A DNA stretch of 57,475 bases from an uncultured Gammaproteobacteria bacterium (GTDB lineage: Bacteria; Patescibacteriota; Microgenomatia; Daviesbacterales; UBA10151): assembly GCA_964500725.1 (NCBI GenBank), contig CAZCNP010000003.1:1-57475 (forward strand), in the 5' to 3' direction. Numbering within the stretch: position 1 is the first letter of the stretch; every line of letters begins with the position of its first letter. The notes below the pieces were generated by a model, which searched no databases, had not been told where the DNA came from, and worked only from the letters and a program-made list of their open reading frames with translations. Below are positions 14,329-42,720 of this stretch, in pieces. Made by a program: the position numbers and the translations under genes.

Positions 14329-14466
14329 TTGCTCCCCAGTCCTGAGATTATTAGAACTCTGATATTTAGGATTATAAAGGTTTGTGAAGATGCTATGCAA
14401 ATGGAGATAATAGTGGAAAGATGGGAAGAATTAAAAAGATTTAGGGTTATTAATCAGGCATTATAG
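14329..14466 (+). repeat. junction J3 with recombinase tail remnant
   Basis: TTGCTCCCC core; frame LPSPEIIRTLIF...IIVERWEELKRF matches the RWEEIKK tail of J6/J8. Confidence 0.65.
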
Positions 14467-17448: not shown

Positions 17449-17521
17449 AAATTAAATATAACATCCCAAGAAAAAATAGTCATCCTAATGACCACCAACA
17501 TGGTTCGATTAAGAACAGTTC

Positions 17522-17538
17522 AGCTCCTTGACCTGGAT
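17522..17538 (+). repeat. degenerate copy of tRNA-Asn 3' end (attR-like)
   Basis: AGCTCCTTGACCTGGAT vs AGCTCCTCGACCTGGAT at 34454-34470 (16/17). Confidence 0.7.
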
Positions 17539-17659
17539 AATCACGTATCCTTCGAAGACTCAGGATTAACGAACAGCTTCCCACTACGTGGGGCGCAGTC
17601 ACAAATCCACAGGCAAAGGATAACAAAAAAGTGAATGCAAGACCCACTTTTTTGATTAT

Positions 17660-17818
17660 GCTCGCCAAGCCTTGATATATTATACCAGCCTATTTTAGAT
17701 GCATTCTCGAATAAGCAGAGCTTCTCAGCGGCGCTTACAGCTTGCTGATAAAAGTTACATGGGTGAATTGAGGCAAAGATGGCTGGAGATTAAGAAATTA
17801 CAACAAAATACAATGTAA
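17660..17818 (+). repeat. junction J4, homologous to J8
   Basis: GCTCGCCAAGCCTTGA start; ATAAAAGTTACATGGGTGAA (17748-17767) identical to 23005-23024. Confidence 0.8.
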
Positions 17819-19720: not shown

Positions 19721-19857
19721 GTATATTATGTGCCACTTGGCTCCGTATTCCTAGTCTTAATCGAACTGGTAGTTTGAATTCAATTATAACAGCTTTTCAG
19801 AATCCAGTAGTTGTTGAGCTCAAACAAAGATGGGGAAGAAACAAAAAAGTTAAATAA
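19721..19857 (+). repeat. junction J6 with recombinase tail remnant
   Basis: GTATATTATGTGCCACTTGGCTCC matches 22935-22958 at 22/24; tail WLRIPSL...VELKQRW. Confidence 0.85.
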
Positions 19858-19862
19858 CAATT

Positions 19863-21276: not shown

Positions 21277-21933
21277 TTATTCTGTAACACACTCAATATC
21301 AAAATCGTCAGAAAATTCGTCTTTTCCTAAACGTTTCTTCTCCTCCACTGCAAAAGTGAACAATTCTCTTAACGTGTTTCTGGCCTGAGTAATATCCAAG
21401 TTATCCCAATAGTCAATTGTGTTCATTTTGCCGTTTTGAACAATATAATCATCTAAACACTCTTTACCATCACCCGACCTTACGAACCCCCTATGTACAC
21501 TACTCGAAAAATGTAACCCAGTAGTATCAATAGACCAAAAAAGTTCGTGTACCTCATAGCTATTGTTTTGAGAATTTTTGCCACATAGGTCAAAAAAAGC
21601 AGTTACCTCATTAGGGAAAATATGCATATTACGTTTAAGTTGTTCATGCACATCTTTTTCAATTAAATTTCTGAAGTCCTCGCTTATGTGTTTTAAGCTC
21701 TTATTATTCCATTGGTTTGAATTTTCGTATTCGAAACAAAGTTTTTCCCAAGATTTATTTCCGAATTCATTTACTCCGTGATTGAAAATCATCAGAGGAA
21801 TGCTGGCAAATTTGTATATTTTATTAAACCCATCATTATTTTGTACCAATCCATTTTTATACCTTCTTCTGTTTCTTTTATCAGCACATACACATATTCC
21901 ATTTTTACATAATGCAGTAAGAATGAGGGTCAT
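21277..21933 (-). CDS. putative Ntn-hydrolase (proteasome beta-like) peptidase
   Basis: Starts M-TLILTALCKNGICVCADKR, like T1...D17..R19 of proteasome/HslV subunits; later RSG. Confidence 0.55.
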   Translation of the reverse strand: MTLILTALCKNGICVCADKRNRRRYKNGLVQNNDGFNKIYKFASIPLMIFNHGVNEFGNKSWEKLCFEYENSNQWNNKSLKHISEDFRNLIEKDVHEQLKRNMHIFPNEVTAFFDLCGKNSQNNSYEVHELFWSIDTTGLHFSSSVHRGFVRSGDGKECLDDYIVQNGKMNTIDYWDNLDITQARNTLRELFTFAVEEKKRLGKDEFSDDFDIECVTE

Positions 21934-22934: not shown

Positions 22935-23081
22935 GTATATTAAGTGCCAATTGGCTCCTCAAGCCTTGACTTATTATACCCCCAAATTTTGGAGACTTTA
23001 TCAAATAAAAGTTACATGGGTGAACTTAGGCAAAGATGGGAAGAAATTAAGAAACTAAGAGATAATTACCAGTTCGCCTGA
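22935..23081 (+). repeat. junction J8 = attL of the intact element, carrying a 39-codon recombinase tail
   Basis: TGGCTCCTC shares core GCTCCTC with 34455-34461; open frame SLDLLYPQILETLSNKSYMGELRQRWEEIKKLRDNYQFA to TGA 23079-81. Confidence 0.8.
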
Positions 23082-23161
23082 TGTTTGTAGCTTCCATTGA
23101 ACATGGTATCAATTTTTTTAAATATTGACCAATTAATATCTTAAAGAGTAATATCCAGTTA

Positions 23162-23548
23162 GTGAATAAGGCCCACATCATAGCAATATATTTAGCTTTA
23201 GGAATTTTGGCATTATTTACTTTCTTTGGTAATAATCAAAACTCTGACCTAGACCAGATAAAAGACAGGGTGACAAAAGTTGAATTTTTCCAAGAAGCTA
23301 CAAGAGTTAGAGAGAATATTGTGGGATTTAAACAAGTAAATGCTTCCTTGGTAAATGATACAGAAAGAGCAAAGAGCTGTACTGAAAGTAAAGATTTATT
23401 AACTGAATGGACAGAAGATATAAAAAAGCTGGGCTTAGACTTTGGAACCTATATGACTAATCATCAAGAGGCTAAGGATTACTTTGATACAATCAGTAAA
23501 CTTAATGATGTTAATATTACTGAATGTAATAAGTTAACTAGCAAATGA
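23162..23548 (+). CDS. membrane-anchored hypothetical protein
   Basis: N-terminal TM, helical C-terminus with Cys pair. Confidence 0.65.
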   Translation: MNKAHIIAIYLALGILALFTFFGNNQNSDLDQIKDRVTKVEFFQEATRVRENIVGFKQVNASLVNDTERAKSCTESKDLLTEWTEDIKKLGLDFGTYMTNHQEAKDYFDTISKLNDVNITECNKLTSK

Positions 23549-25179
23549 CCAAGCTCAAGGTCTTAAAGTATTTACAGTGTATTATTCTTCTTTTAGTGCT
23601 ATTTTTCTCCTTTGTCCCCATAGTAGAGGCACGATCCTACAGAAGTTCTTTTTCGGATGTACATGTTAGGTCTTACTATCGAAAAGATGGAACTTTTGTC
23701 CAGAGTCATTATCGTTCTAGACCTGATGGAATTATCTCTAATAACTATTCCTGTATTGATAATGGAAGGTGTGGTGCAAATTACACATCACGAAGTTATA
23801 GCACTTACTCGTTTACCCTCCCTAGTAGTTATACTTATAAACCATCCTGGCTACCTGTACTTGCACCAGTAGGTTATGATTATGGAGGCTCAACCGAATA
23901 TACATCCTATACACAACCTGCACCCAAGATTACTCCACCAATCAATGCTCATTTGAATTACTTTGGTGACAGTTGGGTATGTGACAACGGTTATAAACGC
24001 AACTATCTGACCGATCAATGTGACAAAATTCAGGTTCCTTCAAACGCATATTTGGCATCGTGGGGAAGTGATTGGCTTTGCAGTACGGGATATAAAAAGA
24101 ATTATTTAACCGACCAGTGCGATAAAGTAAATGTTCCTGCGAATGGATTATTAAGCTACTTCGGGGATGATTTTACCTGTAATAGAGGTTTCAAGAAAAA
24201 CTATTCTACGAACCAGTGTGATCAGATTACAATTCCTGAAAACGCTAGTCTAAGCTATTTTGGTGATGACTGGACATGCAACTATGGCTTTAAAAAGAAT
24301 TACTCTACAAATAGATGCGACAAAATAGAAGTGCCTGCTAACGCTAGCATGTATAGTTGGGGTTCAGACTGGTACTGTAACAAAGGATTTAAGAAAAATT
24401 ACAACACGAACCAATGTGATCCTGTTGTAGTACCTGAAAACGCAAGCTTAGATTACTTCGGTTCTGATTGGAATTGTAACTATGGGTACAAAAAGAACTA
24501 CTCAACTAATAAGTGCGATAAAGTTGAGGTTCCAGCTAATGCGACTTTGTACAGTTGGGGATCTGATTGGTATTGCAATAAAGGATTTAAGAAGAACTAT
24601 ACTACTAATCAATGTGAACCCGTAGTGGCTCCTGAGAACGCAAGTTTGAGTTATTTTGGGGATGATTGGGTATGTAATAATGGCTACAAAAAGAATTATT
24701 CAACCAATAAGTGCGATAAAATAGAGGTACCTGCTAATGCTACCTTAAACAGCTGGGGTAGCGACTGGACTTGTAATTCTGGCTACCGCAAAAACTATAC
24801 AACCAACCAATGCGATAAAGTAGAATGTCCGGCTAACTCCTACGAGTCCTACGGCTATTGCTACTGTAATTCTGGTTATAAAAAGAACTATTCTAATGGT
24901 CAGTGTGAAAAAGTTGAGTGTCCATCCAATTCGTATGAATCCTATGGCTATTGTTACTGTAACAGCGGGTACACCAAAAACTACAGTACTAACCAATGCG
25001 AACCCCTTTACAAACCCACACCCTCACCTAGTCCTACTGTTCAAATAGTTACTCCAACACCAACTTCAATACCTACGCTGATCCCTAGTCCTACACCTTC
25101 ACCCACCCCACTAGTCACTTCAACACCAGAACCCACACCAGCACTATCACCCACTGTTACTCCAATGTCAAATCCCTAA
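23545..25179 (+). CDS. secreted Cys/Trp-rich tandem-repeat protein
   Basis: Signal peptide; VHVRSYYRKDGTFVQSHYRS domain; nine 33-aa P.NA....G..W.C..G.K.NY....C repeats and two 31-aa variants; Pro/Thr tail. Confidence 0.85.
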   Translation: MTKLKVLKYLQCIILLLVLFFSFVPIVEARSYRSSFSDVHVRSYYRKDGTFVQSHYRSRPDGIISNNYSCIDNGRCGANYTSRSYSTYSFTLPSSYTYKPSWLPVLAPVGYDYGGSTEYTSYTQPAPKITPPINAHLNYFGDSWVCDNGYKRNYLTDQCDKIQVPSNAYLASWGSDWLCSTGYKKNYLTDQCDKVNVPANGLLSYFGDDFTCNRGFKKNYSTNQCDQITIPENASLSYFGDDWTCNYGFKKNYSTNRCDKIEVPANASMYSWGSDWYCNKGFKKNYNTNQCDPVVVPENASLDYFGSDWNCNYGYKKNYSTNKCDKVEVPANATLYSWGSDWYCNKGFKKNYTTNQCEPVVAPENASLSYFGDDWVCNNGYKKNYSTNKCDKIEVPANATLNSWGSDWTCNSGYRKNYTTNQCDKVECPANSYESYGYCYCNSGYKKNYSNGQCEKVECPSNSYESYGYCYCNSGYTKNYSTNQCEPLYKPTPSPSPTVQIVTPTPTSIPTLIPSPTPSPTPLVTSTPEPTPALSPTVTPMSNP

Positions 25180-25246
25180 TAGAACACTCTTTACAGCAAA
25201 AAGTTGTTGTAAAAGTTTAATTTTAAGAGTAATATAATAAGCATTC

Positions 25247-25501
25247 ATGAAAAAATTGCTTATCAGTCTACTCCTTGGAGTCTTTGTTTTCTCTATCCTT
25301 ATTCCAACTGGCGTAGAGGCTGCTTCCAGAGTTAAAGGTTATACTAAGAAAAATGGTACCTATGTTGCACCCCACTATAAAACCCCACCAAATAAATCAA
25401 AATTTGACAATTTCAGTACAAAGGGTAATATCAATCCTTATACTGGTAAAAAGGGTACTGTAAATCCCTATAAATTCACACCCAAAAAATACAAACGATA
25501 G
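25247..25501 (+). CDS. small secreted basic protein (VKGYTKKNGTYVAPHY family)
   Basis: Signal peptide; homologous to N-domain of upstream gene. Confidence 0.75.
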   Translation: MKKLLISLLLGVFVFSILIPTGVEAASRVKGYTKKNGTYVAPHYKTPPNKSKFDNFSTKGNINPYTGKKGTVNPYKFTPKKYKR

Positions 25502-25570
25502 TTGCCCGAAAGCATTTATTTATCCTGTTATAAAGGGACTTAATATAAGAATTGGGTAAATTTATTTTAC

Positions 25571-26917
25571 TCAATTCTTCAAATTAGGTACTGGTAATTG
25601 AAGTGCAGATACAACTCCGTTCTCACAACCTTTTCGTACCTTTGCCATTTCTGTATTAAGATTTTCTAACTTTTCCTCTAACTTAGTAACTAATATTCGA
25701 TAATTTTCGCTTATCATATTTATCTCTACTTCAAGCTGTTGTTTTAAACCTAATCTTAAATCATTTTTCTTTATAACCTCACCTCTTATATTATCTACTT
25801 CCTCTGCTAGTGTGAGTTTACCTTTGCTTTCAAACTTCTCCCTTTGGAAGTACTTTCGAATATTGTTCAAAATGACTTCAAATAAGAATAATGCATTAAA
25901 AAGCAGTATTAAGACCAGAGATAAAACTACTTTTATGGGGCTAAATACAAATGCAAAACCACCGGTTTTCTGAACTTTCCTTATAGTGAGGGTAACACCA
26001 ACAATCAGGGGTATGAACATTAAGCGAAACAGAAAATCTAATAAATCCGTAGACATAGATATTAGAACCGCATAAAGAATAAGCAAAATTAATCCCACTA
26101 GGATCATTAAATAAACTTTAGGCTTATTTTTTCTGTATTCTGACGACTTCTCAAATAAATCCAGAAGTTGCTCTAGATAAATCAAATAGATAATAGCCAA
26201 CATTCCACTTGAAACATAAATTATCCATTCATTATTTTTGAATATAATCTTTAAAAACTCCCTAAATATATATAGGGATATTACATAGTCCCCTGCTAGC
26301 AATAAACCAATTAAAACAAGATACACATACCTCAATAAATCACCTTCTAATCTTTGTGTTGCTTTATTTAGAAATTCTATAGTTTTTTCTATTTTTCCTG
26401 AGAAAAAGTAGACTTTCTGACTTTTGTTTTTGCTGTCCTGCTCTAATCTTTCATTTTTGTCATCTTCTTCTCTTTTTAATTGAAACAGCTCTTCTTCCTT
26501 AGCTTTTAAAGTATGTTCTATTGCTTGGATTTCTTCTACAAGTTTCTTATCTTTATCCTCACATTCTTTAACAGCAGCTTCTTTTTTAAGTTTCGCTTCC
26601 TCTTTTAGAGAATTAGTCTGTTGTTCTAAACGACTCACTCTTTGATCGTAATCTTCACGATATACAGAAAGACCTACATTGAAGACCATATCCTTCACCA
26701 TTTTTACACGCTCTTCCATATTTTTTTGAGAATGAGGAGAGGTTAATATTTTTATGATTGGGTCATTAAATTTAATTGCAACCTTCTTACCAGTTTGTTT
26801 TCCATAACGGTCGTGTCTGGTATTGTATAAATAAGCCGATGCTGCTACCCCTGTCCCAGTAAAGAGAGTTGTTAAAGTAACAAAATTAGTTTGTAAAAAG
26901 TTAATGAGCTCGTTCAT
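25571..26917 (-). CDS. coiled-coil and multi-TM membrane protein
   Basis: Coiled coils flank ~5 hydrophobic helices. Confidence 0.7.
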   Translation of the reverse strand: MNELINFLQTNFVTLTTLFTGTGVAASAYLYNTRHDRYGKQTGKKVAIKFNDPIIKILTSPHSQKNMEERVKMVKDMVFNVGLSVYREDYDQRVSRLEQQTNSLKEEAKLKKEAAVKECEDKDKKLVEEIQAIEHTLKAKEEELFQLKREEDDKNERLEQDSKNKSQKVYFFSGKIEKTIEFLNKATQRLEGDLLRYVYLVLIGLLLAGDYVISLYIFREFLKIIFKNNEWIIYVSSGMLAIIYLIYLEQLLDLFEKSSEYRKNKPKVYLMILVGLILLILYAVLISMSTDLLDFLFRLMFIPLIVGVTLTIRKVQKTGGFAFVFSPIKVVLSLVLILLFNALFLFEVILNNIRKYFQREKFESKGKLTLAEEVDNIRGEVIKKNDLRLGLKQQLEVEINMISENYRILVTKLEEKLENLNTEMAKVRKGCENGVVSALQLPVPNLKN

Positions 26918-26923
26918 AGTTGG

Positions 26924-28129
26924 TTAAAAATTCTCAAAAACTAACTGGCATGATTTTAGTAGCTCACGGTAAAACTCCTGAACAGTCTGACGATAAGAAA
27001 AGTTATCACCATACTCCATTCCTACAATAATAAACCTACCACCTGGATTTTTACAAATAGGAGAACCATTTATTATAAGTTCTTTGTTTCTTTTTTTCTG
27101 AAGATAACTTTTAATCACGTCATAATCCTTGAGGGTCGAATATACTTCTTTACCCCCTGTGATTTCATCATCTCTAAGGGCAAACTCACCATCTGTAACT
27201 AAAAGGAATTCATAATTATCATATTTTTTGTTGACTATATCATCACTTATCTGAGTAAGATGAGGTATTAAATAAGTACCAGAATGACAACCAGTATTAG
27301 GATTTTTAATACCATTCTCCCAGAACTCCTTTATCTTCTGATAAATTACCTCTTCATCGTTAGTTGTAATTTCATTACCAACCTCTTTTACTTCGGAAGG
27401 CAATTTATCCCCTAATTCAATAAGTAACTGTTTATTCTTTTTAGCATAAATAATATTTGCATCCCATTCTGGTTCTGTGTATTTTATAACCAATTTATTA
27501 TTGCAGGGATTATCCTTGAAGTCTGGACCGTAAAAACGGACATTTATAGTATCGTTCGGCAATAAACCGTTATTGGAGGGTTCACGAAGATAATTTTTTA
27601 TTTTTTGGAATACTAGATCAGAATATTTATTTTCAGCTTTTTTTATAACTGAGTCCTTATCTCTGGTCACAACTGAATTAGAAATATCTAGCGAGATATC
27701 AACTAATCTTTTGTATCCTTGATCAATTCGGGGAAGCTTTAATTGACTATTCAGCCTATCGCCCTTTTTGGCTTCTGCAAGGATATACTTCTCTAAATGA
27801 GGGTTAACATTATCTCCCTTGAAATATTCTTCAAAAAATATCTCATTATTATCCCTCCTTTTTATAGTTAACTTCTCGCAATCCTCGCATTCATCAATAA
27901 CAAAACGATTATTTTTATTATTCGTATTTTTGCTTTTTATATCAATTTTTATATCCTGTAGGGTTACTTCTAAAGGTTCTTGGTTAAAATTCCTTACCAG
28001 TATAACTAGAGCCACAAAAATAATTATTCCTATCCCACCAAACAATAAAACTCTCTTCTCTATAAACGAAGACTTAGTTTTTATTGGCTTCTTCTTGGTT
28101 ACCTTGATTAAATTATTTTTATTATTCAT
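26924..28129 (-). CDS. membrane-anchored vWA-like domain protein
   Basis: N-terminal TM; DISNS (DxSxS-like MIDAS) and LLVTDGE. Confidence 0.55.
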   Translation of the reverse strand: MNNKNNLIKVTKKKPIKTKSSFIEKRVLLFGGIGIIIFVALVILVRNFNQEPLEVTLQDIKIDIKSKNTNNKNNRFVIDECEDCEKLTIKRRDNNEIFFEEYFKGDNVNPHLEKYILAEAKKGDRLNSQLKLPRIDQGYKRLVDISLDISNSVVTRDKDSVIKKAENKYSDLVFQKIKNYLREPSNNGLLPNDTINVRFYGPDFKDNPCNNKLVIKYTEPEWDANIIYAKKNKQLLIELGDKLPSEVKEVGNEITTNDEEVIYQKIKEFWENGIKNPNTGCHSGTYLIPHLTQISDDIVNKKYDNYEFLLVTDGEFALRDDEITGGKEVYSTLKDYDVIKSYLQKKRNKELIINGSPICKNPGGRFIIVGMEYGDNFSYRQTVQEFYRELLKSCQLVFENF

Positions 28130-28203
28130 TGTTATTATTTATATCTTACATGTTATTATAGCCAGATTAGAACCAGCTTGAATAGGCTTTTATTCACCTG
28201 TAC

Positions 28204-28380
28204 CTAATTAGAGTTTTTTAAAAACTTCTCTATATCTTCTTTTTTATAGCGCCTATCTCCTCTAGTGCTAACAATCACAGCCTTTAATTTCCCTAAACGA
28301 TCCCATCTTCTAAGAGTTTCGGGATTAACACTTAACATCTCTGCTACTTCTTTGATTTTTAAAAGTCTAGTTTTAACCAT
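28204..28380 (-). CDS. MerR/excisionase-type HTH protein (58 aa)
   Basis: MVKTRLLKIKEVAEMLSVNPETLRRWD..G.L...RGDRRY; not in ORF track. Confidence 0.85.
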   Translation of the reverse strand: MVKTRLLKIKEVAEMLSVNPETLRRWDRLGKLKAVIVSTRGDRRYKKEDIEKFLKNSN

Positions 28381-28459
28381 AATTATTAGACTTAATTATA
28401 CATCTAGTTTTTCAAAAGTTAAGGAATGTTAAAATATAACATAGATAAGATACAACAAT

Positions 28460-29008
28460 ATGGAAAAAAATAAAGGTGGTAGACCACCAACAACAGAAGA
28501 AACACTTGATTTGTATTTGCGGAAACTAGAACCATTCCTAAAGAGTGGTCAGACGCTCTATAGAGCTTGTCTTAACACCCAAATTCCATATAGGACAGTT
28601 AAAGATTGGTCCGATAAAAGTGAGGGGTTTTCGCAAAAAATAGATGCTTTTTTAAGCTACACAGCTAATTTAATTAATAACCTACATTTTAGTAGATTAG
28701 TTGGTATTGCAACAAAGCAAAGTAAAATGCAGGAATTACTAGCTGATCTAAAAGCCGGAAAGATAAAAAAAGAAGATTTTGATAAGCTATGTGCAGATTA
28801 TGAGATATCTGATAAAGAGTGGCAATTTATAGCATGGTACGCTACCCACTCGTATTCCACTAGAGAGGACTATGGACAAAGGATAGATCGTATTGAAGAA
28901 AATCCACAACCATTAACACCTGAAGCAGACACAAGAGAAGTAGCAGAATTATTGCAGGCTATTCTTCATAAAAATGATGCTCCTGAAGAAAAAATTGTTA
29001 TAAGCTAG
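28460..29008 (+). CDS. hypothetical protein, terminase small subunit-like N-terminal HTH
   Basis: GGRP...G.TL..AC....IPYRTVKDW pattern. Confidence 0.45.
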   Translation: MEKNKGGRPPTTEETLDLYLRKLEPFLKSGQTLYRACLNTQIPYRTVKDWSDKSEGFSQKIDAFLSYTANLINNLHFSRLVGIATKQSKMQELLADLKAGKIKKEDFDKLCADYEISDKEWQFIAWYATHSYSTREDYGQRIDRIEENPQPLTPEADTREVAELLQAILHKNDAPEEKIVIS

Positions 29009-29261
29009 TTAGCTCATTCATGGAAACTCCAAGCGCTTTGGCAATCTTCCACATAACAAAAACTGTGGGATGGTATTTCCCAAGCTCTAAATGACCAACA
29101 TAAGTAAGATGGAGTCCAGCCTTTTCTGCTAACTCTTGCTGGGTCATTCTTTTGTTTTTCCTTACCTCTTTTAGTCTCTCGCTGAGTAATCCGGTAAATT
29201 CTCTTCTTAATTTCTTATTCTCGTTCTCATCTTTAGGAGTTTTGAACTGTAAAGTACCCAT
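28998..29261 (-). CDS. XRE-family HTH regulator
   Basis: MTQQELAEKAGLHLTYVGHLELGK..P. Confidence 0.92.
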   Translation of the reverse strand: MGTLQFKTPKDENENKKLRREFTGLLSERLKEVRKNKRMTQQELAEKAGLHLTYVGHLELGKYHPTVFVMWKIAKALGVSMNELTSL

Positions 29262-29349
29262 GCCTCTAATTTTCTAGCGTAGACATAGTTTTATATATAG
29301 CGTACTTATCTAAATATTGTTATAATTGATATAGACTCATTTACTATTT

Positions 29350-30045
29350 ATGGCACTTCTACCTTTTACAGAGGAACAAAAAAGTAAAATTAAAGAGGAA
29401 GAGGATGAAGACTTAAGAAGGCAATTGAGGTCTTTTACTTCTAAAACTAATCAGAAGCATGGTGTACCTGCAATTTTGTCATTGTTTATTCCTGGACTTG
29501 GACAAATAGTAAAGGGGCAGACTGGAAAGGGTATCCTAATCCTTATTTGTACGCTTATTGGCTATTTCGTGTTTGTTGTTCCCGGACTCATTATTCATAT
29601 CTGGCAAATTGCTGATGCATACAATAATAACAAGATATCGGATAATGAAGACAAACCAAAAAGTAAAGTTAAGTGGCTTGGTTTAATTTTGATTACGCTT
29701 ATTATCTTACTCCTTAGCTTAGCGGGTAAGTATTCTAGTGGCACAACAAGCAAAGAGAGCTTCCAAGATTTATCAAGAAAAAGATTTGATGGTATATTAG
29801 CTACATCGCCTGAACTAGAAAGTATTGAATGTTTAGATGGAAATTGTACATCTGTTGTGTATTTTAACTTTAGGAAGTTGCCTGATGATTTAGAGTATAT
29901 GATTAGAGCCAATACTGTAACTTTCTCAAATTTTAAATACGAGAATACTGGAACAAGTAATATAAGCATATTTGCGACATATAACGGTAGCACTCTGTTA
30001 CAATGCGATGGTGGTCAAGGAAAGGTAAAAGACTGCAAAAAATAA
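29350..30045 (+). CDS. membrane protein
   Basis: AILSLFIPGLGQIVKGQTGKG motif; several TMs. Confidence 0.7.
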   Translation: MALLPFTEEQKSKIKEEEDEDLRRQLRSFTSKTNQKHGVPAILSLFIPGLGQIVKGQTGKGILILICTLIGYFVFVVPGLIIHIWQIADAYNNNKISDNEDKPKSKVKWLGLILITLIILLLSLAGKYSSGTTSKESFQDLSRKRFDGILATSPELESIECLDGNCTSVVYFNFRKLPDDLEYMIRANTVTFSNFKYENTGTSNISIFATYNGSTLLQCDGGQGKVKDCKK

Positions 30046-30063
30046 AAAAGAATTACCTTATGT

Positions 30064-31005
30064 ATGAACGGATTATTTGTTTTACTGTTTATAATCTCCC
30101 TGATACTGTTTCCTATAGCAGTTATTAAGCCAAGTTTTGTTGCGAAAGTAACAAAACATACATTTACAAGATTAAGAATTGGATCACTCTTAGGAATAGT
30201 AACATTGGCACTATTTATTTTAGTAGGAGTAACTGCACCACCAAAATCTACAAATAACATTTCAGTATCTCAAGATCAACAAGTAAAGGAAGCATCTAAG
30301 CAACAGGTAGGAGTTAATGTAGAAGATAAAAGTAAAGAACCGGAAAAAGCCTCACCTACACCAGCGTCATCTTCGCAAACAAATCTTTATACTGTTACTT
30401 CTGTTATTGATGGAGATACTGTTAAAGTTACCCTGGGCAGTGAGCAGGAAACCCTGCGTTTAATAGGCATTGACTCACCGGAGACAGTAGACCCTAGAAA
30501 ACCAGTCCAGTGTTTTGGTAAGGAAGCCTCTGCAAAAGCTAAAGCATTACTTTCCGGTAAATCCGTAAGGCTTGAGGCAGACCCAACACAAGGTGAAAGG
30601 GATAAATATCAAAGGCTTCTTAGGTATGTTTTTTTAGAAGATGGGACTAGTTTTAATAAACTAATGATTTCAGAAGGATATGCTCACGAATATACTTACA
30701 ATGTACCTTACAAATATCAGGCTGAATTTAAACAAGCACAGAAAGAAGCAGAAGCAAATAAAAGGGGTTTATGGGCTGATGATGCTTGTGGTAGACCGCA
30801 ACCAACTACAAATGTTAGTTCTTCGGGCAATACAGGAGCTTCAGGGGGATCTTCTGGTAATAGTGGCGGTTTCACTTGTGCAGGTAAGACTTTATGTGGT
30901 CAGATGACTTCTTGTGCAGAGGCTAATTTTTACTTAAATACATGCGGAATAAGTAGATTAGATGGCGATAAAGATGGTGTTCCTTGTGAAACACTTTGTA
31001 ATTAA
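30064..31005 (+). CDS. thermonuclease (SNase) with C-terminal excalibur Ca-binding domain
   Basis: VIDGDT, RLIGIDSPE, DKYQRLLRYV; LDGDKDGVPCE. Confidence 0.92.
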   Translation: MNGLFVLLFIISLILFPIAVIKPSFVAKVTKHTFTRLRIGSLLGIVTLALFILVGVTAPPKSTNNISVSQDQQVKEASKQQVGVNVEDKSKEPEKASPTPASSSQTNLYTVTSVIDGDTVKVTLGSEQETLRLIGIDSPETVDPRKPVQCFGKEASAKAKALLSGKSVRLEADPTQGERDKYQRLLRYVFLEDGTSFNKLMISEGYAHEYTYNVPYKYQAEFKQAQKEAEANKRGLWADDACGRPQPTTNVSSSGNTGASGGSSGNSGGFTCAGKTLCGQMTSCAEANFYLNTCGISRLDGDKDGVPCETLCN

Positions 31006-31097
31006 ATCACTGCAACTGTTGCAGGAATACTTGATATTTATTTCCATTAAAATACAATAAGTCCACTCTAAAAGTTTGGAGCAAATATAAAGATAAA

Positions 31098-31955
31098 ATG
31101 AGTATAAACAATCAAACCAGTTTGGGTTTTAAGGATCTTATACAAATTCTTCTACAAACCCAAATGGATTATAAATGGTTTAGCGTAAGGAAAAAACTAA
31201 ACTATGAAAAAGCCTTATTCCTCCCTATTAGCAAAGAATTTACTAAAGATATTTTATCAATCAAAGAAGAATTTAATGTACCAAAATTAAGCCCAGACAA
31301 GGACTACATTTTTATTGAGGGTGCTGGAATTGAGATTGAGGACTCAAATTGGCTTAGCGTAAAACCCAAAGAGTTTATAAACAGATGGGAAGCATGCATA
31401 ACGGAATTGCTTCATAAATATAAACTTCCTGTAAGTTTCATAGATTGGGTGGAATGGAATATTCTTTATGGAAAACCTAAAACTTATCCTAATTACAACA
31501 TGGAGACATTTTTAGAAATAATAAGATATCCCCAAGAAGCAAATAGAATAGGTTTAACAACGGGTGAGAAGAAACTAATGCTGGAACTACTGAGGTTTGT
31601 AATCAAATCCACAAAAGGTAAACGAAGGACTACTTTAAAAAAATCATTTGTACAACTGGAAGAGATAATTAAACAAAGCAAAAATCGGAGGCGTGGGATA
31701 AGAAGCTTAAAAACATCCTTAATCGCATACAACAAACCAGAAGTTGAAACATATCACGATACAACTAAGGGCAGTCATGGAGAAGATGTAACAAAACACT
31801 ATTCATATAGGAAACTGGTTTCTGACCATTTTGATATTGATACTGAAGACGATAATGAGTTTGAGGAAGAAATAAATAAAAATGCAGCAAAGTTAAGAAA
31901 ACAAAAGGAAAGACTTTTAAAACGCCATATTCAGCCTCAAAAAGTTGAAAATTAG
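31098..31955 (+). CDS. hypothetical protein
   Basis: 285-aa ORF. Confidence 0.7.
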   Translation: MSINNQTSLGFKDLIQILLQTQMDYKWFSVRKKLNYEKALFLPISKEFTKDILSIKEEFNVPKLSPDKDYIFIEGAGIEIEDSNWLSVKPKEFINRWEACITELLHKYKLPVSFIDWVEWNILYGKPKTYPNYNMETFLEIIRYPQEANRIGLTTGEKKLMLELLRFVIKSTKGKRRTTLKKSFVQLEEIIKQSKNRRRGIRSLKTSLIAYNKPEVETYHDTTKGSHGEDVTKHYSYRKLVSDHFDIDTEDDNEFEEEINKNAAKLRKQKERLLKRHIQPQKVEN

Positions 31956-32123
31956 TGTCACTTTTTCCATTTTAAGCTCCTGTAGACTAGTGCTTAATGA
32001 GTATCAATATTAAGGATAAGCAAAAACATCAATTAGAAATGGTTGCAGAACAATGGGTCAATATAGTATTCGCCCATTTACAGCATAAAAAGCAATTCCT
32101 GATCAAAAAGAATAAAAATAACT

Positions 32124-32369
32124 ATGGAAAATAATAAAAACATCTTTTCTACTGACTCATTTGTTCTAGCAAGTTACCTCCTTTGTGAGTCATTAAAACT
32201 TACATCTATAAATAGGGATAATCCCAAGAGAATGATTTTTGTATTTGAAGACTCCACACAAAGGAAACTATTGATAGAGCTTTTCTTTTCATATAAAGCC
32301 CGAGTTGAACCTAATCGGTTCTATTCAGCTCAGAGAAATTTGAAGCAGATGATTTATCAAAATAAATAG
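32124..32369 (+). CDS. DUF5659-like protein
   Basis: FSTDSFVLASYLL...DNPKRMIFVF...VEP..F pattern. Confidence 0.65.
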   Translation: MENNKNIFSTDSFVLASYLLCESLKLTSINRDNPKRMIFVFEDSTQRKLLIELFFSYKARVEPNRFYSAQRNLKQMIYQNK

Positions 32370-32393
32370 TAAAAATTAGTAATAAAAATAAAA

Positions 32394-32732
32394 ATGAATA
32401 TGGGCAAATTTAGAATTAATCAGATAGCATTACGCAACATTGTTTGGAGGGCTCCTGAATACCCTTTAGCAGCGAAGGTGCTCTTACTTGACCTTCTTTG
32501 GTATGCAGGTAACAGTAATTCCGCCTTTCCCTCTCAAAAGACCCTAGGGAAAAACCATGGTTTAAGCTCCCGTTATGTAAGGAAAATGCTCAAATTACTA
32601 AAAGAGTATGGCTGTATAACTTGGAGAAAATCTGGTTTTTCAAAAAGCAATCATTATACTTTCAGCACAGATTTATATGGTGTTATCAATGAAACAATCA
32701 ATGAGGAACAAACAGATGAGGGAACAAAATGA
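32394..32732 (+). CDS. HTH replication-initiator-like protein (possibly truncated)
   Basis: AFPSQKTLG...LS.RYV...LK.L...G.I...SNHY wHTH. Confidence 0.7.
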   Translation: MNMGKFRINQIALRNIVWRAPEYPLAAKVLLLDLLWYAGNSNSAFPSQKTLGKNHGLSSRYVRKMLKLLKEYGCITWRKSGFSKSNHYTFSTDLYGVINETINEEQTDEGTK

Positions 32733-32929
32733 GTAAGGAATTATTGTTCCTCCAACTAGAGGTATTAAAGTTCCTATTCATAAAGGAACAAGGAAACCGA
32801 CTAATGATAATCAGAACTAAAGATAATCAAATTAAAGATAGTCAGGATTATCTGAAAGATAATCCCTTCAACGAGTATGCGTTGAAGGATGCTGGTTTAC
32901 CAGCATCAATCCTTGTAGGAAAAGTGTAA
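32729..32929 (+). CDS. hypothetical or C-terminal fragment of replication gene
   Basis: ATGA overlap; GGAAC/GTTCC repeats. Confidence 0.3.
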   Translation: MSKELLFLQLEVLKFLFIKEQGNRLMIIRTKDNQIKDSQDYLKDNPFNEYALKDAGLPASILVGKV

Positions 32930-32968
32930 AATATAATGTATAATTAAATATAAGTAATAAACATAAAT

Positions 32969-34507
32969 ATGAAGAATTGTTATATCTATTTAAGAGTAAG
33001 TACAGACGAGCAAGCCAACGAAGGTTTCTCTTTAGATAACCAGAAACGCTCCTGTTCAGACTACGCCCAAATGTGTGGGTACCATATTAAGAGGGTATTT
33101 GAGGATGGCGGTAAAAGCGGTAGAACAACAGATAGACCAGCTTTTCAAGAGTTGTTAACCCTACTCCAAGAAAGCCCAGTAGATGCAGTTATTATTTATA
33201 AAATTGATAGATTTGCCAGAAATGTTGGGGATTTCTCCGGAATAAGGAAACAGTTTAAAAACATGGGCGTTAAGCTCCTCTCTGTATCCGAAAATGGTGA
33301 TGTGACCGAGGGTTTAATAGGAAATATCTTTGCTTCTGTTGCGGAGTGGGAGTCAGAGGTAAATGGACAAAGGACTAAGGATGCTTTAATGCAGAAATTT
33401 AGGGAAGGTTGGCAGCCAACCCCTCCTCCACTTGGCTATATAAGCATTGGCGGAGATCGAGAGAGAAAAACTTGTGAACCGGATCCATATGTAGCATCTA
33501 TTGTCAAGGAAATGTTCGAGATTTATGCTACAGGGAATTATTCAATCCTAGAACTCCAAGAATGGCTCAGTAATAAAAATTTGGTTTCTAAATCAGGGAC
33601 AGGACTCGGACATAGCGTAATCTGCAATATTCTAAATAACCCTTTCTACTACGGTCTAATACGCTGGAAGGGTGAGTCAAAGATAGGAAAACATATCCCC
33701 ATTATTACTAGGGATTTGTTTGAAACCTGCCAGTATGTTTTAGCAAAGCACAGAAACTTTTTAATGAGACGCAGAGTCCACGATTTCCTTCTTAGAGGGT
33801 TTATCTATTGTGGTGAGTGTGGTCAAAGATATACCGCTGAATGGCATGTAGATGCGGTAAAACTTAAGAAACGAGGCGGAAAGATAGGATATTACCATTG
33901 CAAGAAATTAGGCAGAAACGGCTGTCCTGCCCCGTATGTGGAGCTAGCAGACTTAGAAAACCAAACTATGGAAGAATTTAAAAAAATGCAATTTAGCCAA
34001 GAATTTATAGATGCTGTGGTCCGCAAAACTAAGGAACGCTTAGAAAACACCCGCAAAACCGCAGCTTCTTTAAAACAAGGCATGATAAACCAAAAAACAG
34101 CTTTTGAAGCTAAAAGAAGCAAGCTTGAAGATGCTTTATTAGATGCGACTATAGACCGAGATACATTTAAAAGAAAACACTCAGAAATTCAGGATAAAAT
34201 CCTCAATCTAGAGGCTCAAATACAGGAGATTGATGCTGAGAGCCAGATAGATATTGAGCTTATTGATGAAGTTCTAGCTTTTACTAGGAATATTTATCAA
34301 ACTTACTCTGAAGCCCCAGATTTTCTAAAAAGGCACTACCTCAGGTTCTTTTATGAAAAGATAATTGTAAGAAATAAAGAGATTATAGAAGCAACGCCAA
34401 CTCCGATTTTCGCATCCCTGCTTGCTAATCAGCAGGTTATAATAACAGACTTGAGCTCCTCGACCTGGATTCGAACCAGGAACCTGCCGATTACATTTTA
34501 CCCTTAA
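32969..34507 (+). CDS. large serine recombinase
   Basis: YLRVST catalytic Ser, KIDRFAR, recombinase domain, CGECG zinc ribbon, coiled coil; 3' end runs antisense into tRNA-Asn. Confidence 0.95.
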   Translation: MKNCYIYLRVSTDEQANEGFSLDNQKRSCSDYAQMCGYHIKRVFEDGGKSGRTTDRPAFQELLTLLQESPVDAVIIYKIDRFARNVGDFSGIRKQFKNMGVKLLSVSENGDVTEGLIGNIFASVAEWESEVNGQRTKDALMQKFREGWQPTPPPLGYISIGGDRERKTCEPDPYVASIVKEMFEIYATGNYSILELQEWLSNKNLVSKSGTGLGHSVICNILNNPFYYGLIRWKGESKIGKHIPIITRDLFETCQYVLAKHRNFLMRRRVHDFLLRGFIYCGECGQRYTAEWHVDAVKLKKRGGKIGYYHCKKLGRNGCPAPYVELADLENQTMEEFKKMQFSQEFIDAVVRKTKERLENTRKTAASLKQGMINQKTAFEAKRSKLEDALLDATIDRDTFKRKHSEIQDKILNLEAQIQEIDAESQIDIELIDEVLAFTRNIYQTYSEAPDFLKRHYLRFFYEKIIVRNKEIIEATPTPIFASLLANQQVIITDLSSSTWIRTRNLPITFYP

Positions 34508-34760
34508 TTTACATCAAGGAATGGACTATCTCTTCACCATAAACTTGATTCTGGACAAGCCAGAACGACATATTTTTAGGTGTGGGGCGCTAATTGGTGT
34601 ACTCACCTAGTCTCTGCACCTTCCCCCCGCCTTTGGCAGGGGTCTTGGCTCAGGATTACCTCTAAAAGGGTTTCCTGAATTCACCCCATTCTCATTCTTA
34701 GCTTTTGCCAAGAAGCTGCATTTTCTACAGTCGGACGCTCTACCGTTGAGCTATCGAGGA
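34456..34760 (-). tRNA. tRNA-Asn(GTT) split by a group I intron (exons 34727-34760 and 34456-34493)
   Basis: Joined exons form a 72-nt cloverleaf, TCCTCGA/TCGAGGA acceptor, loop CTGTTAA; CCA not encoded. Confidence 0.9.
34494..34726 (-). ncRNA. group I intron (IC3-like), 233 nt, between anticodon positions 35 and 36
   Basis: Exon-terminal U; terminal G; IGS GCAG pairs CUGU; AATTCAGGAAAC, AATCCTGAGCC, GCAGAGACTAG and AAGAGATAGTCC core. Confidence 0.9.
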
Positions 34761-38806: not shown

Positions 38807-38896
38807 TGGCGGTGGGAGAGGGATTCGAACCCTCGGTAGACTTACGCCCACACGATCTTTCCAGGATCGCCGGTTAAACCACTCCCGAATCCCACC
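38807..38896 (-). tRNA. tRNA-Ser(GGA)
   Basis: GGTGGGA acceptor, CTGGAAA loop, long variable arm, GCCA end. Confidence 0.95.
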
Positions 38897-39924: not shown

Positions 39925-40044
39925 AATTCTACATTAACCGAATAAAATGCGAAAGTCAAGATCTAATTAAGCAGATCTTTTTGAAAAACGTTCCAACGTG
40001 CCTTGACCCCGATCCCGATATAATCGGGACAGGTTAAATCAGGG

Positions 40045-40082: not shown

Positions 40083-40083
40083 T

Positions 40084-42714: not shown

Positions 42715-42720
42715 TCTAAG

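What the first reader, a model, noticed from the sequence alone, without database searches (positions are those of the whole stretch)
22935..34507. Integration swaps the recombinase C-terminus; excision would restore tRNA CCA
Seen: joining the recombinase at core GCTCCTC (34455-61) to the left-end core (22954-60) is in frame. It replaces the 14-aa antisense-tRNA tail TWIRTRNLPITFYP with a 39-aa tail SLDLLYPQ...RQRWEEIKKLRDNYQFA, which is homologous to tails at other junctions. The empty site would read GAGGAG-CCA, whereas the integrated tRNA lacks encoded CCA. Inference: attP lies inside the recombinase gene, so free and integrated forms make different enzymes. This could be a directionality or stability switch, analogous to integration-dependent truncation in some phage systems, but in a serine recombinase.
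Basis: partly seen in the sequence, partly recalled or inferred. Interest (0 to 1): 0.8.

Follow-up and report, generated by a model that had tools for sequence, protein, structure and literature searches.

The report
Integration swaps a serine recombinase's tail
An 11.5-kb mobile element sits in a tRNA-Asn gene of a Microgenomates (CPR) bacterium, and its attachment site lies inside its own serine-recombinase gene, so integrating cuts off a conserved 39-residue end of the enzyme that the circular form has; this was known for a few tyrosine integrases, and I found no report of it for serine recombinases.

Summary
GCTCCTC occurs at 22954-60 and 34455-61. Joining the two copies keeps the recombinase in frame (512 aa becomes 537 aa). 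The rebuilt empty site reads ...GAGGAG-CCA.

The 7-bp repeat proves nothing alone, because it occurs 5 times in the window. The comparative evidence is strong:
- **Empty site.** Relatives have tRNA-Asn joined directly to the same 24-nt trailer, one of them with matching genes on both sides.
- **Free circle.** A 9,646-bp circle with the same gene backbone was assembled in three samples. It carries an unbroken 538-aa recombinase ending in the same tail.
- **Other integrated copies.** In 6 relatives the distal end carries the tail, in frame across a GCTCC-type core.
- **Selection.** Tail codons vary like coding sequence (0.25/0.13/0.52 by codon position in the motif GELRQRWEEIKKL), while synonymous sites are saturated.
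- **attP layout.** attP is a ~50-bp inverted repeat centred in the core. The codons for QVIIT form its left arm.

So free and integrated forms do make different enzymes, across this whole recombinase family. Whether this acts as a directionality or stability switch is untested. The CCA point is correct but incidental. This is a new variant of a known kind (Mx8 IntP/IntX, integration-dependent immunity).

The parts
22935..22953 (+). attB left half (B): the chromosomal trailer of tRNA-Asn, GTATATTAAGTGCCAATTG
   Evidence: The same trailer is joined directly to the tRNA-Asn 3' end in 6 metagenome contigs with empty sites and in the rebuilt attB of L011.
22954..22960 (+). Left copy of the core GCTCCTC (attL)
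   Evidence: The family core is GCTCC[CT]C.
22961..22979 (+). P' arm of attP (AAGCCTTGACTTATTATAC), which is also the first tail codons
   Evidence: It is the inverted repeat of the P arm (GGTTATAATAA ... TTATTATACC) and is conserved in 8 elements. In the AlphaFold model of P0033 this stretch is a disordered linker.
22961..23081 (+). Displaced 3' end of the recombinase gene: 39 tail codons plus the TGA stop. It has no start codon of its own.
   Evidence: In frame with the LSR across the core. Homologous tails lie at the distal ends of 6 integrated relatives and run unbroken in P0033 and P0104. The codon pattern matches coding sequence.
22961..34454 (.). Integrated element; 11,501 bp as a circle when one core copy is included
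   Evidence: Bounded by attL and attR. Absent from the syntenic empty site in L026. Its backbone (DUF5659, HTH_36, LSR, MerR/HTH_17, HTH_3) matches the circle L001-L003.
28204..28380 (-). 58-aa MerR/HTH_17 (excisionase-type) protein; candidate recombination directionality factor
   Evidence: Pfam PF12728, PF13411 and PF00376. 59% identical to its counterpart on the circle L001. Also present in L038 and L041. The RDF role is inferred, not tested.
28998..29261 (-). Cro/CI-type HTH_3 regulator
   Evidence: Pfam PF01381, E=5e-17. Conserved in L001, L006 and L041.
32124..32369 (+). DUF5659 backbone gene
   Evidence: Pfam PF18903, E=4e-12. It holds the same position in L001, L005, L006, L038 and L041.
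32394..32732 (+). HTH_36 protein with a weak RP-C match; possible replication or regulatory protein
   Evidence: Pfam PF13730. The L006 homologue has a weak DnaB_2 hit.
32969..34507 (+). Large serine recombinase, integrated isoform (512 aa). Residues 1-498 come from the element; the last 14 are antisense to the tRNA.
   Evidence: Pfam Resolvase, Recombinase and Zn_ribbon_recom. 654 homologues found.
34436..34454 (+). P arm of attP (GTTATAATAACAGACTTGA), inside the LSR codons ..QVIITDL..
   Evidence: Conserved as both DNA and protein in all family members examined.
34455..34461 (+). Right copy of the core GCTCCTC (attR); it is the antisense of tRNA positions ..GAGGAG-C
34455..34760 (-). tRNA-Asn(GUU), the integration target. 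The 3' exon is 34455-34493 and the 5' exon 34727-34760.
   Evidence: ARAGORN on the spliced sequence. Relatives have tRNA-Asn starting exactly at the LSR end (L009, L014, L016, L018).
34494..34726 (-). Group I intron in the anticodon loop of tRNA-Asn
   Evidence: Rfam RF00028, 85.2 bits, E=2.6e-20. Splice points were placed by hand and checked by the ARAGORN call.
14331..14445 (+). Remnant of an older left end: core GCTCCCCAG, a P'-like arm and a divergent tail (..IIVERWEELKRFR..)
   Evidence: It resembles the second tail in L008.
17510..17545 (+). attR-like remnant: P-arm-like sequence, GCTCCTT, then 9 nt of the tRNA 3' end
   Evidence: read directly from the sequence.
17659..17809 (+). Frameshifted remnant of a core (GCTCGCC), P' arm and tail
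   Evidence: tblastn E=1e-8 and E=0.013 in two different frames; sequence.
19722..19860 (+). Degenerate second copy of the whole attL (a trailer-like flank, the core, and a decayed tail)
   Evidence: Its origin is unexplained.

Best explanation
**Shown.**
- 22961-34454 is a small, non-viral, plasmid-like integrative element. A large serine recombinase (LSR) inserted it into the 3' end of an intron-containing tRNA-Asn(GUU) gene.
- The element's attP is a ~50-bp imperfect inverted repeat (GGTTATAATAA, 26 nt, TTATTATACC). It lies inside the 3' end of the LSR's own reading frame.
- The left arm of attP is the codons for ..QVIIT... The crossover core GCTCCTC is the codons for ..SSS... The right arm is the start of the tail.
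- The circular form therefore encodes a 537-aa enzyme. Its last 39 residues are a linker followed by a conserved helical motif (F..I...FQN..YIGELRQRW.EIKKLQ).
- Integration moves those codons 11.5 kb away to attL, where they have no start codon. The ORF then runs antisense into the tRNA for 14 arbitrary residues.
- The swap is a trait of the whole family, with hundreds of members in Microgenomates and other CPR bacteria. The tail is under purifying selection at the protein level.

**Inferred, about 45% likely.** The tail is a regulatory module that only the non-integrated enzyme carries.
- The likeliest role is to tune the enzyme's interaction with its coiled-coil or zinc-ribbon region, or with the small MerR/HTH_17 excisionase-like protein.
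- Under this view the full-length enzyme favours attP x attB integration, and the truncated prophage-state enzyme is the form that responds to the directionality factor, or is less active.
- Convergent transcription with the tRNA gene may also lower expression of the integrated copy.
For: **Identity of the enzyme and target**
- The LSR has the Resolvase, Recombinase and Zn_ribbon_recom domains.
- The target is tRNA-Asn.

**Empty sites**
- Six contigs have tRNA-Asn joined directly to the 24-nt trailer.
- L026 has rpoD (90% aa identity) on one side and a homologue of ORF 21277-21933 on the other.

**Free form**
- L001, L002 and L003 are 9,676-bp contigs from 3 samples. Each has a 30-bp terminal overlap, and they are exact circular permutations of each other.
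- They carry the same backbone and an unbroken 538-aa LSR (P0033) ending ..IGQLRQRWNEIKKLQYNV.

**Family pattern**
- Of the 120 best homologues, most stop at or just after ..L-P or run into antisense tRNA (R.DSN..P).
- About 20 carry long non-tRNA tails that fall into at least 4 families.

**Other integrated copies**
- The tail lies 6-10 kb upstream on the same strand in L008, L009, L011, L012 and L013, and in frame across a GCTCC-type core there as in the window, 6 junctions in all.
- The core assignment was ambiguous in L012.

**Selection**
- The analysis used 11 tails. Diversity by codon position is 0.25/0.13/0.52 in the 13-codon motif and 0.40/0.28/0.60 over 30 codons.
- The same taxa give 0.37/0.22/0.62 for the LSR coiled coil and 0.24/0.13/0.61 for the catalytic domain.
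- 279 of 541 comparisons with the same amino acid use different codons. pS is about 0.89 and pN about 0.32.
- Linker length varies only in whole codons.
- Tails in dead remnants are frameshifted or decayed.

**Structure**
- The AlphaFold model of P0033 has a disordered linker at 490-507, which corresponds to the attP core and P' arm. Two C-terminal helices follow.

**Plausibility that a C-terminal appendage changes directionality**
- Integrase-RDF fusions at the C-terminus switch directionality within one subunit (PMC5737554).
- The extreme C-terminus of phiC31 integrase contacts its RDF (bioRxiv 10.1101/2025.05.02.651858).
Against: - No functional data exist for either isoform.
- The free form of this exact element and its empty site were not found. 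The junction scan of JGI metagenomes gave 0 hits, and there is no near-identical full-length protein in the database.
- A circular assembly could in principle come from tandem identical copies rather than a free circle.
- The same tail families occur on a second LSR family only ~25% identical, and tails do not track LSR phylogeny. This argues against a tightly co-evolved contact with the LSR body and fits a more generic role, or none specific to recombination.
- Tail confidence in the model is low (pLDDT 50-67).
- The tail ends are not conserved, so an SsrA-type degron is unlikely.
- About a third of integrated copies in reference genomes are pseudogenes (L016-L019). That also fits integration being a dead end.
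Confidence: 0.8

Rival explanations
1. The overlap is a by-product of genome compaction. attP merely happens to sit at the end of the gene, and the tail is a dispensable read-through. On this view its conservation reflects DNA-level constraints (the P' arm, a promoter or terminator, or recent common ancestry), not protein function.
For: - The first ~7 tail codons are the P' arm, and this stretch corresponds to the disordered linker in the P0033 model.
- Tails are interchangeable between LSR bodies and even between LSR families.
- Integrated enzymes with arbitrary tails are common, and their ORFs are mostly intact.
Against: - The conserved motif lies 60-105 nt past the core, beyond a ~25-bp half-site.
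- Third codon positions are 2-4 times more variable than first and second positions, and synonymous sites are saturated.
- Indels occur only in whole codons.
- The rebuilt or unbroken junction is in frame in 6 family-1 integrated junctions (the window and five relatives), in P0033 and P0104, and in 2 family-2 array junctions.
- Tails decay in dead remnants.
Confidence: 0.2
2. Integration is a one-way lock. The tail is required for catalysis or synapsis, so the truncated integrated enzyme is inactive. The element then persists as a replicating circle or as a fixed island that slowly decays.
For: - Four of about 13 integrated copies in reference genomes are pseudogenes.
- The window holds at least three decayed left ends with no LSR left.
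- The backbone has Rep-like HTH_36/DnaB_2 genes, so a circle might replicate on its own.
Against: - All catalytic and DNA-binding domains and the coiled coil lie before the junction.
- Most integrated ORFs are intact.
- A conserved excisionase-like gene is kept.
- In Mx8, the analogous swap changes the integrase but does not inactivate it (PMC6070905).
Confidence: 0.15
3. The database proteins with tails come only from junctions inside tandem arrays, where one element's LSR reads into its neighbour's left end. On this view they say nothing about a free form.
For: - In L006, P0104 is followed by a second backbone set.
- In L008, a frameshifted P' arm and tail lie directly after the LSR.
- In L017 and L018, a family-2 LSR reads into a family-1 tail.
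Against: - L001-L003 are exact circular permutations with terminal overlaps and no chromosomal flank, found in 3 independent samples.
- Even inside arrays, a P-core-P' junction is an attP. The gene structure of the excised element is therefore the same.
Confidence: 0.1

Closest known systems
Myxococcus phage Mx8 integrase (IntP to IntX)
   Same: attP lies inside the integrase coding sequence. Integration into a tRNA gene creates a recombinant gene with a new 3' end. The prophage-form enzyme is altered, not destroyed (PMC6070905, citing Tojo 1996 and Magrini 1999).
   Different: Mx8 Int is a tyrosine recombinase of a tailed phage. This enzyme is a large serine recombinase on an 11.5-kb element with no capsid genes. 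Here the displaced tail belongs to a few conserved families shared by many elements.
Integration-dependent immunity of mycobacteriophages (clusters G, N and P; Broussard et al. 2013)
   Same: attP lies inside an ORF and overlaps a tRNA gene. Integration removes a C-terminal peptide, so the free and integrated states express different proteins (PMC5764923).
   Different: There the truncated gene is the repressor, the integrase is a tyrosine recombinase, and the removed peptide is an SsrA-like degradation tag. Here the recombinase itself is truncated, and the tail has no conserved extreme C-terminus.
SSV1-type archaeal integrases
   Same: attP lies inside the int gene, and the target is a tRNA gene (from my own knowledge; see also the review PMC8371274 listed, which I did not read).
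   Different: The SSV1 int gene is split into two large parts and is disrupted in the provirus. Here only the last 39 of 537 residues are displaced and all known domains stay together. SSV1 Int is also a tyrosine recombinase.
Engineered serine integrase-RDF fusions
   Same: A polypeptide attached to the LSR C-terminus by a flexible linker changes directionality through contacts within one subunit (PMC5737554). That layout matches the linker-plus-helix tail predicted here.
   Different: The fusions are artificial and use a whole RDF protein. They favour excision. The natural tail is ~25 structured residues of unknown activity, and it is present in the form that must integrate.
phiRSM-type filamentous phage serine recombinase
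   Same: A serine recombinase integrates at the 3' end of a tRNA gene, with the att core in reverse orientation to the tRNA (PMC3816273).
   Different: It is a small resolvase/invertase-type enzyme, and its attP lies between ORF14 and ORF15, not inside the recombinase gene.

Membership tests
Large serine recombinase (serine integrase) | N-terminal resolvase-type catalytic domain with the nucleophilic serine | tested here: met
   PF00239, E=6e-33, residues 5-147. The motif R9-V10-S11 is invariant across 60 homologues.
Large serine recombinase (serine integrase) | Recombinase domain plus a zinc-ribbon domain after the catalytic domain | tested here: met
   PF07508 (E=1e-12) and PF13408 (E=1e-9). 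The cysteines are invariant.
Large serine recombinase (serine integrase) | Coiled-coil motif inserted in the zinc-ribbon domain | tested here: met
   The AlphaFold model of homologue P0033 has two long antiparallel helices, 344-391 and 397-440, at pLDDT ~90. This is a prediction, not a solved structure.
Large serine recombinase (serine integrase) | Short (~40-50 bp) attP with imperfect inverted repeats around a central dinucleotide shared with attB | tested here: met
   attP has GGTTATAATAA, 26 nt, TTATTATACC, plus an inner repeat CTTGAG/CTCAAG. Its centre falls inside the 7-bp identity with attB. The layout is conserved in 8 elements.
Large serine recombinase (serine integrase) | attB half-sites bound in a register 5 bp closer to the centre than attP half-sites | tested here: inconclusive
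   The left attB flank of the window and of L011 carries a P'-like motif at attP-type spacing. Other relatives show nothing similar. The register is known from structures and cannot be read from sequence alone.
Large serine recombinase (serine integrase) | Excision requires a separate recombination directionality factor | not testable with these tools
   Only a candidate exists: the conserved 58-aa MerR/HTH_17 protein at 28204-28380.
attP-inside-integrase systems (Mx8 IntP/IntX type) | The attP core lies inside the integrase ORF, and integration gives the gene a new 3' end | tested here: met
attP-inside-integrase systems (Mx8 IntP/IntX type) | The integrase is a tyrosine recombinase | tested here: not met
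   The enzyme is a serine recombinase.
attP-inside-integrase systems (Mx8 IntP/IntX type) | The prophage-form enzyme has altered activity or specificity | not testable with these tools
   This needs recombination assays of both isoforms.
Integration-dependent immunity (mycobacteriophage clusters G/N/P) | attP lies inside the immunity repressor gene | tested here: not met
   attP is inside the recombinase gene. The HTH_3 regulator at 28998-29261 is far from either junction.
Integration-dependent immunity (mycobacteriophage clusters G/N/P) | The removed C-terminal peptide is an SsrA-like degradation tag | tested here: not met
   The tail ends differ between elements (..YQFA..QYNV..SSSIT..RVSV..LATP..DVRA). 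The conserved part is internal.
SSV1-type split integrase | Integration splits the int gene into two substantial parts and disrupts it | tested here: not met
   Only the last 39 of 537 residues are displaced. All Pfam domains and the coiled coil remain in the integrated ORF.
tRNA-targeting integrative element / genomic island | Insertion at the 3' end of a tRNA gene, flanked by a direct repeat, with the tRNA kept intact | tested here: met
   The 7-bp repeat flanks the element. The tRNA-Asn acceptor stem and discriminator base are unchanged and only the bases at the CCA position differ. Empty sites exist in relatives.

The most novel reading that the evidence does not exclude
The tail may be a portable peptide that senses the element's state and controls directionality.
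- It would be attached to the recombinase only while the element is a circle, or when a neighbouring element supplies it in a tandem array.
- It would act within the same subunit on the zinc-ribbon/coiled-coil region or the RDF interface, making the enzyme favour integration or ignore the RDF.
- Integration would physically cut it off, allowing RDF-dependent excision.
- The same four tail families serve two LSR families that are only ~25% identical. The module would therefore be generic and could perhaps be transferred to other serine integrases.
Probability: 0.25. Interest if true: 0.85.

Novelty: new variant of a known kind. Interest (0 to 1): 0.62.

Why it matters
**For serine integrase biology.**
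- Serine integrases are valued because their direction is set only by the pair of att sites and a separate RDF protein.
- A natural family whose own C-terminus changes with integration state would add a third layer of control, one written into the DNA topology itself.
- That would give a defined, testable ~40-residue module, and the free and integrated isoforms can be compared directly.

**For CPR bacteria.**
- The work defines a widespread family of small integrative elements at tRNA-Asn in Microgenomates and other CPR bacteria. Mobile elements in these organisms are poorly described.
- Relatives of the element carry defence-type genes such as KAP NTPase, Qat-like genes and restriction-modification genes.

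**If the tail proves dispensable.** The case still shows a recombination site and a protein-coding region sharing the same bases, with the QVIIT codons doubling as the attP arm.

Tried and rejected
- **ARAGORN on the raw window.** It found no tRNA at the junction. The group I intron explains this.
- **Scan of JGI metagenome contigs.** I used one degenerate 45-nt pattern covering attL, attR, attP and attB of this exact element. It gave 0 hits, so the source genome is not in that collection.
- **IMG/VR scan with the family alignment.** Only relatives at 28% identity or less turned up. I dropped the idea that this is a recognised virus or prophage; the island also has no capsid or terminase genes.
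- **Circularity of the tail-B and tail-C contigs** (L038-L041). They show no terminal overlaps, so their state is unknown.
- **Circularity of the family-2 contigs** (L042, L043). I fetched them but did not test them for terminal overlaps.
- **Terminator after the tail stop codon.** None was found.
- **Tail as an independent small ORF.** Rejected: there is no conserved start codon, and the frame is continuous with the LSR in every case.
- **Tail as an SsrA-like degron.** Rejected: the ends are not conserved.
- **CCA restoration as functionally important.** Rejected.
- **Literature.** Searches for attP inside a serine recombinase gene found no precedent. The library does not cover most subscription journals, so this does not prove none exists.
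- **My regex classification of tails**. It was crude, with 24 of 120 left unanchored. The counts I quote come from reading by eye.

Full report
**1. What is at the coordinates**

The ORF 32969-34507 (+) encodes a 512-aa large serine recombinase (LSR). It has Resolvase (E=6e-33), Recombinase and Zn_ribbon_recom domains.

Its last 14 codons run antisense into a tRNA on the minus strand. ARAGORN does not report this tRNA, because Rfam finds a group I intron at 34502-34737 (85 bits, E=2.6e-20). After I removed 34494-34726 by hand, ARAGORN called tRNA-Asn(GTT) spanning 34455-34760.

- GCTCCTC occurs at 22954-60 and 34455-61.
- Joining 34461 to 22961 is in frame and turns the 512-aa protein into a 537-aa one.
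- The new 39-residue tail is SLDLLYPQILETLSNKSYMGELRQRWEEIKKLRDNYQFA.
- The circle would be 11,501 bp.
- The rebuilt empty site gives the tRNA an encoded CCA, which the integrated copy lacks.

The 7-mer alone means nothing, since it occurs five times on the + strand of the window.

**2. The boundaries are real**

I scanned metagenome contigs for the tRNA T-loop and acceptor end joined directly to the left flank (GGAGCCAATYGGCACTTAATATAC). Six contigs matched, in four different sequence contexts.

One of them, L026, is a syntenic empty site:
- rpoD (90% aa identity to window 35637-36728) lies on one side.
- An intron-less tRNA-Asn and the trailer follow.
- A homologue of window ORF 21277-21933 lies on the other side.

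In GTDB genomes, relatives of the LSR end exactly where ARAGORN places a tRNA-Asn(GTT) 3' end (L009, L014, L016, L018). In L011, L012 and L013 the LSR runs into a tRNA T-arm sequence instead.

**3. attP lies inside the gene, and this is a family trait**

A search with the 537-aa chimera found 654 homologues at E<1e-20, mostly from Daviesbacteria, Roizmanbacteria and other Microgenomates/CPR bacteria. Reading their C-termini gives this picture:
- Most stop within a few residues of a conserved ...VII....L-P.
- Others continue as R.DSN..P, which is the translated antisense of a tRNA T-arm. These are integrated copies.
- About 20 of the best 120 carry long tails unrelated to tRNA. These fall into at least four families.
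- Family A is the window's tail. Examples are P0033 (..ISFDFASIYEAFQDLSCIGQLRQRWNEIKKLQYNV), P0104 and P0054.

P0033 is encoded on L001, L002 and L003:
- These are 9,676-bp contigs from three sequencing runs, each with a 30-bp terminal overlap.
- After trimming, they are exact circular permutations of one another.
- They therefore represent a 9,646-bp circle.
- It has the same backbone as the window's island: DUF5659, HTH_36, LSR, MerR/HTH_17 and HTH_3.
- Its HTH_17 protein is 59% identical to the window's.

So the unbroken LSR-plus-tail gene exists in a free form.

**4. Independent integrated copies behave the same way**

tblastn with the tails found a family-A tail on the LSR strand, 6-10 kb upstream of the LSR, in L008, L009, L011, L012, L013 and L019. 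In L017 and L018 the upstream tail is instead the C-terminus of a second, family-2 LSR (section 9).

For the window and the five relatives with an intact LSR, I looked for the longest k-mer shared between the LSR 3' end and the region before the tail:
- It is a GCTCC-type core in each case: GCTCCTC, GCTCCCCAG, GCTCCCC, GCTCCCC, GCTCCC and GGTGCTCC.
- The join is in frame in each case.
- In L012 there were four tied 6-mers, and I chose the one homologous to the family core.

**5. Layout of attP**

Aligning the rebuilt and unbroken attP sequences shows an outer inverted repeat, GGTTATAATAA then 26 nt then TTATTATACC. In the window there is also an inner repeat, CTTGAG/CTCAAG.
- The centre of symmetry falls on the CC in the middle of the core.
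- The attB and attP flanks differ immediately on both sides of the 7 bp.
- The crossover must therefore lie inside GCTCCTC.
- The left arm is the codons for ..QVIIT.. and the right arm is the first tail codons (..LDLLY..).

**6. The tail is under protein-level selection**

I made a codon alignment of 11 family-A tails.

| Region | Diversity at codon positions 1/2/3 | Source |
|---|---|---|
| Tail motif GELRQRWEEIKKL (13 codons) | 0.25 / 0.13 / 0.52 | |
| Tail, 30 ungapped codons | 0.40 / 0.28 / 0.60 | |
| LSR catalytic domain | 0.24 / 0.13 / 0.61 | |
| LSR coiled coil | 0.37 / 0.22 / 0.62 | |

The tail figures use all 11 tails; the 30-codon figure is the same for the 8 taxa with an intact LSR that give the two LSR rows.

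Other points:
- 279 of 541 comparisons with identical amino acids use different codons.
- Synonymous sites are saturated (median pS 0.89) against pN 0.32.
- Linker lengths differ only in whole codons.
- The conserved motif lies 60-105 nt past the core, which is beyond any plausible half-site.
- The tail frame has no conserved start codon, so it is not a separate ORF.
- The old left ends in the window are frameshifted or degenerate (17659-17809, 19722-19860, 14331-14445).

**7. Structure**

The AlphaFold2 model of P0033 used 60 aligned sequences and has a mean pLDDT of 79.6.
- It shows the usual LSR domains and a long coiled coil (344-391 and 397-440).
- Residues 490-507 are disordered. These are the residues encoded by the attP core and P' arm.
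- Two C-terminal helices follow (508-515 and 519-537), at low confidence (pLDDT 50-67).

The stretch that must double as a DNA site therefore encodes a flexible linker, and the conserved motif is a helix attached to it.

**8. What it may do (inferred)**

Nothing here measures activity. Three published facts make a regulatory role plausible:
- In phage Mx8, attP inside int gives the prophage a recombinant gene with a new 3' end. The resulting enzyme is altered but not inactivated (PMC6070905).
- Fusing an RDF to the C-terminus of a serine integrase through a flexible linker switches directionality within one subunit (PMC5737554).
- The extreme C-terminus of phiC31 integrase contacts its RDF (bioRxiv 10.1101/2025.05.02.651858).

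I think it most likely (about 45%) that the tail tunes integration against RDF-dependent excision, or tunes activity level. The alternatives are:
- a dispensable read-through (about 20%);
- a one-way lock in which the truncated enzyme is dead (about 15%).

An SsrA-type degron is unlikely, because the tail ends are not conserved.

The CCA point is incidental. Four of the five other tRNAs in the window lack an encoded CCA, and only three of six rebuilt attB sites encode it.

**9. Arrays and a second LSR family**

Several loci are tandem arrays:
- In L008 the LSR is followed by a frameshifted P' arm and tail from another element, not by a tRNA.
- In L006, P0104 is full length because a second backbone set follows it.
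- In L017 and L018, an LSR only ~25% identical to this one reads in frame (..W-L-P..) into a family-A tail. That tail belongs to a downstream family-1 element whose own LSR, next to tRNA-Asn, is a pseudogene.

A homologue search with that second LSR showed the same overall pattern:
- Most members stop at ..WLP or run into antisense tRNA.
- About 15 of 120 carry tails A, B, C or D.

Both LSR families read the core in the same frame. Tail family does not follow LSR phylogeny. The tails therefore behave as modules of the element's left end. This weakens any model that needs tight co-evolution between the tail and the LSR body.

**10. Comparison with known systems and novelty**

- **Mechanism class.** This belongs with the cases where attP lies inside an ORF and integration changes the protein. 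Those are Mx8 IntP/IntX, SSV1-type integrases and mycobacteriophage integration-dependent immunity (PMC5764923).
- **Why it is not a member of those.** The enzyme is a serine recombinase, not a tyrosine one. The truncated gene is the recombinase, not a repressor. The gene is not split into halves.
- **Other serine recombinases at tRNA genes.** The phiRSM enzyme also targets a tRNA 3' end, but its attP lies between genes (PMC3816273).
- **Precedent search.** I found no paper describing attP inside a serine recombinase ORF. The search covers open-access literature only.
- **Element type.** The family has no close relatives in IMG/VR, and the island has no virion genes. It is best described as a small plasmid-like integrative element.

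I rate it a new variant of a known kind.

**11. Verdict**

- The structural inference is supported at about 0.9.
- The proposed switch is plausible but untested.
- Interest is moderate to high for people who study recombinases and CPR mobile elements.

Noticed in passing
window 34494-34726 (-), inside tRNA-Asn 34455-34760: tRNA-Asn(GUU) carries a 233-nt group I intron in its anticodon loop, so ARAGORN and the Rfam tRNA model both miss the gene. Relatives have alleles with the intron (L022, L023, L027) and without it (L024, L026, L009).
   Followed up: partly
window 14331-14445, 17510-17545, 17659-17809, 19722-19860: At least three decayed left ends (core, P' arm and tail) and one attR-like remnant lie to the left of the intact element, with no recombinase gene left. 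The tRNA-Asn locus looks like a graveyard of earlier insertions. The copy at 19722 also repeats the chromosomal trailer, which no simple tandem-insertion model explains.
   Followed up: partly
window 22935-22957; L011; L022-L027: The 24-nt trailer after tRNA-Asn (CCAATYGGCACTTAATATAC) is identical in several organisms whose sequence beyond it differs. Its GTATATTAAGTG is 11/12 identical to the reverse complement of the element's P' arm, and it lies at the same distance from the core. That is attP-type spacing, not the register 5 bp closer to the centre reported for attB half-sites.
   Followed up: partly
L017 1615-3264; L018 1-1533; proteins P0121-P0240: A second LSR family, ~25% identical, targets the same core in the same reading frame. 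It shows the same split between integrated and tailed forms and carries the same four tail families. It occurs in Patescibacteria and in MAGs labelled Chloroflexota and Omnitrophica.
   Followed up: partly
proteins P0009, P0010, P0022 and others: Tail family does not follow the phylogeny of the recombinase body. For example, tail-C protein P0009 is 85% identical to the integrated P0010 and 77% identical to tail-B protein P0022. This suggests that left-end modules are shuffled between elements, perhaps through tandem arrays.
   Followed up: no
window 23545-25179, 30064-31005; L001 4524-7412; L006 2977-6869 and 12333-17255: Cargo differs between elements. The window has a 544-aa Cys-rich repeat protein and a 313-aa protein with SNase and Excalibur domains. 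Relatives carry a KAP NTPase, a Qat-like set (QatB, QueC-like, TatD) and ResIII/methyltransferase genes, so this looks like a carrier of defence-type genes.
   Followed up: no
window 19863-20993 (-), 21936-22925 (-): A Fic/DOC protein and a protein with a weak HNH_2 match lie just left of the island, between two attL-like sequences. They may be cargo left by an older element. The HNH_2 gene is absent from the syntenic empty site in L026.
   Followed up: no
L016-L019 (LSR matches starting at 10001): Four of about 13 integrated LSR copies in GTDB reference genomes are interrupted by frameshifts or stops, so integrated copies often decay.
   Followed up: no
window 38807-44612 and 46832-47252: There is a cluster of five tRNA genes, four of them tRNA-Ser and only one with an encoded CCA. 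A tmRNA gene lies at 46832-47252 (Rfam, 107 bits).
   Followed up: no
L010, L013, L015, L017 record titles: Several contigs that carry this CPR-type recombinase at tRNA-Asn belong to MAGs labelled 'uncultured Gammaproteobacteria'. This is probably mis-binning or mislabelling.
   Followed up: no
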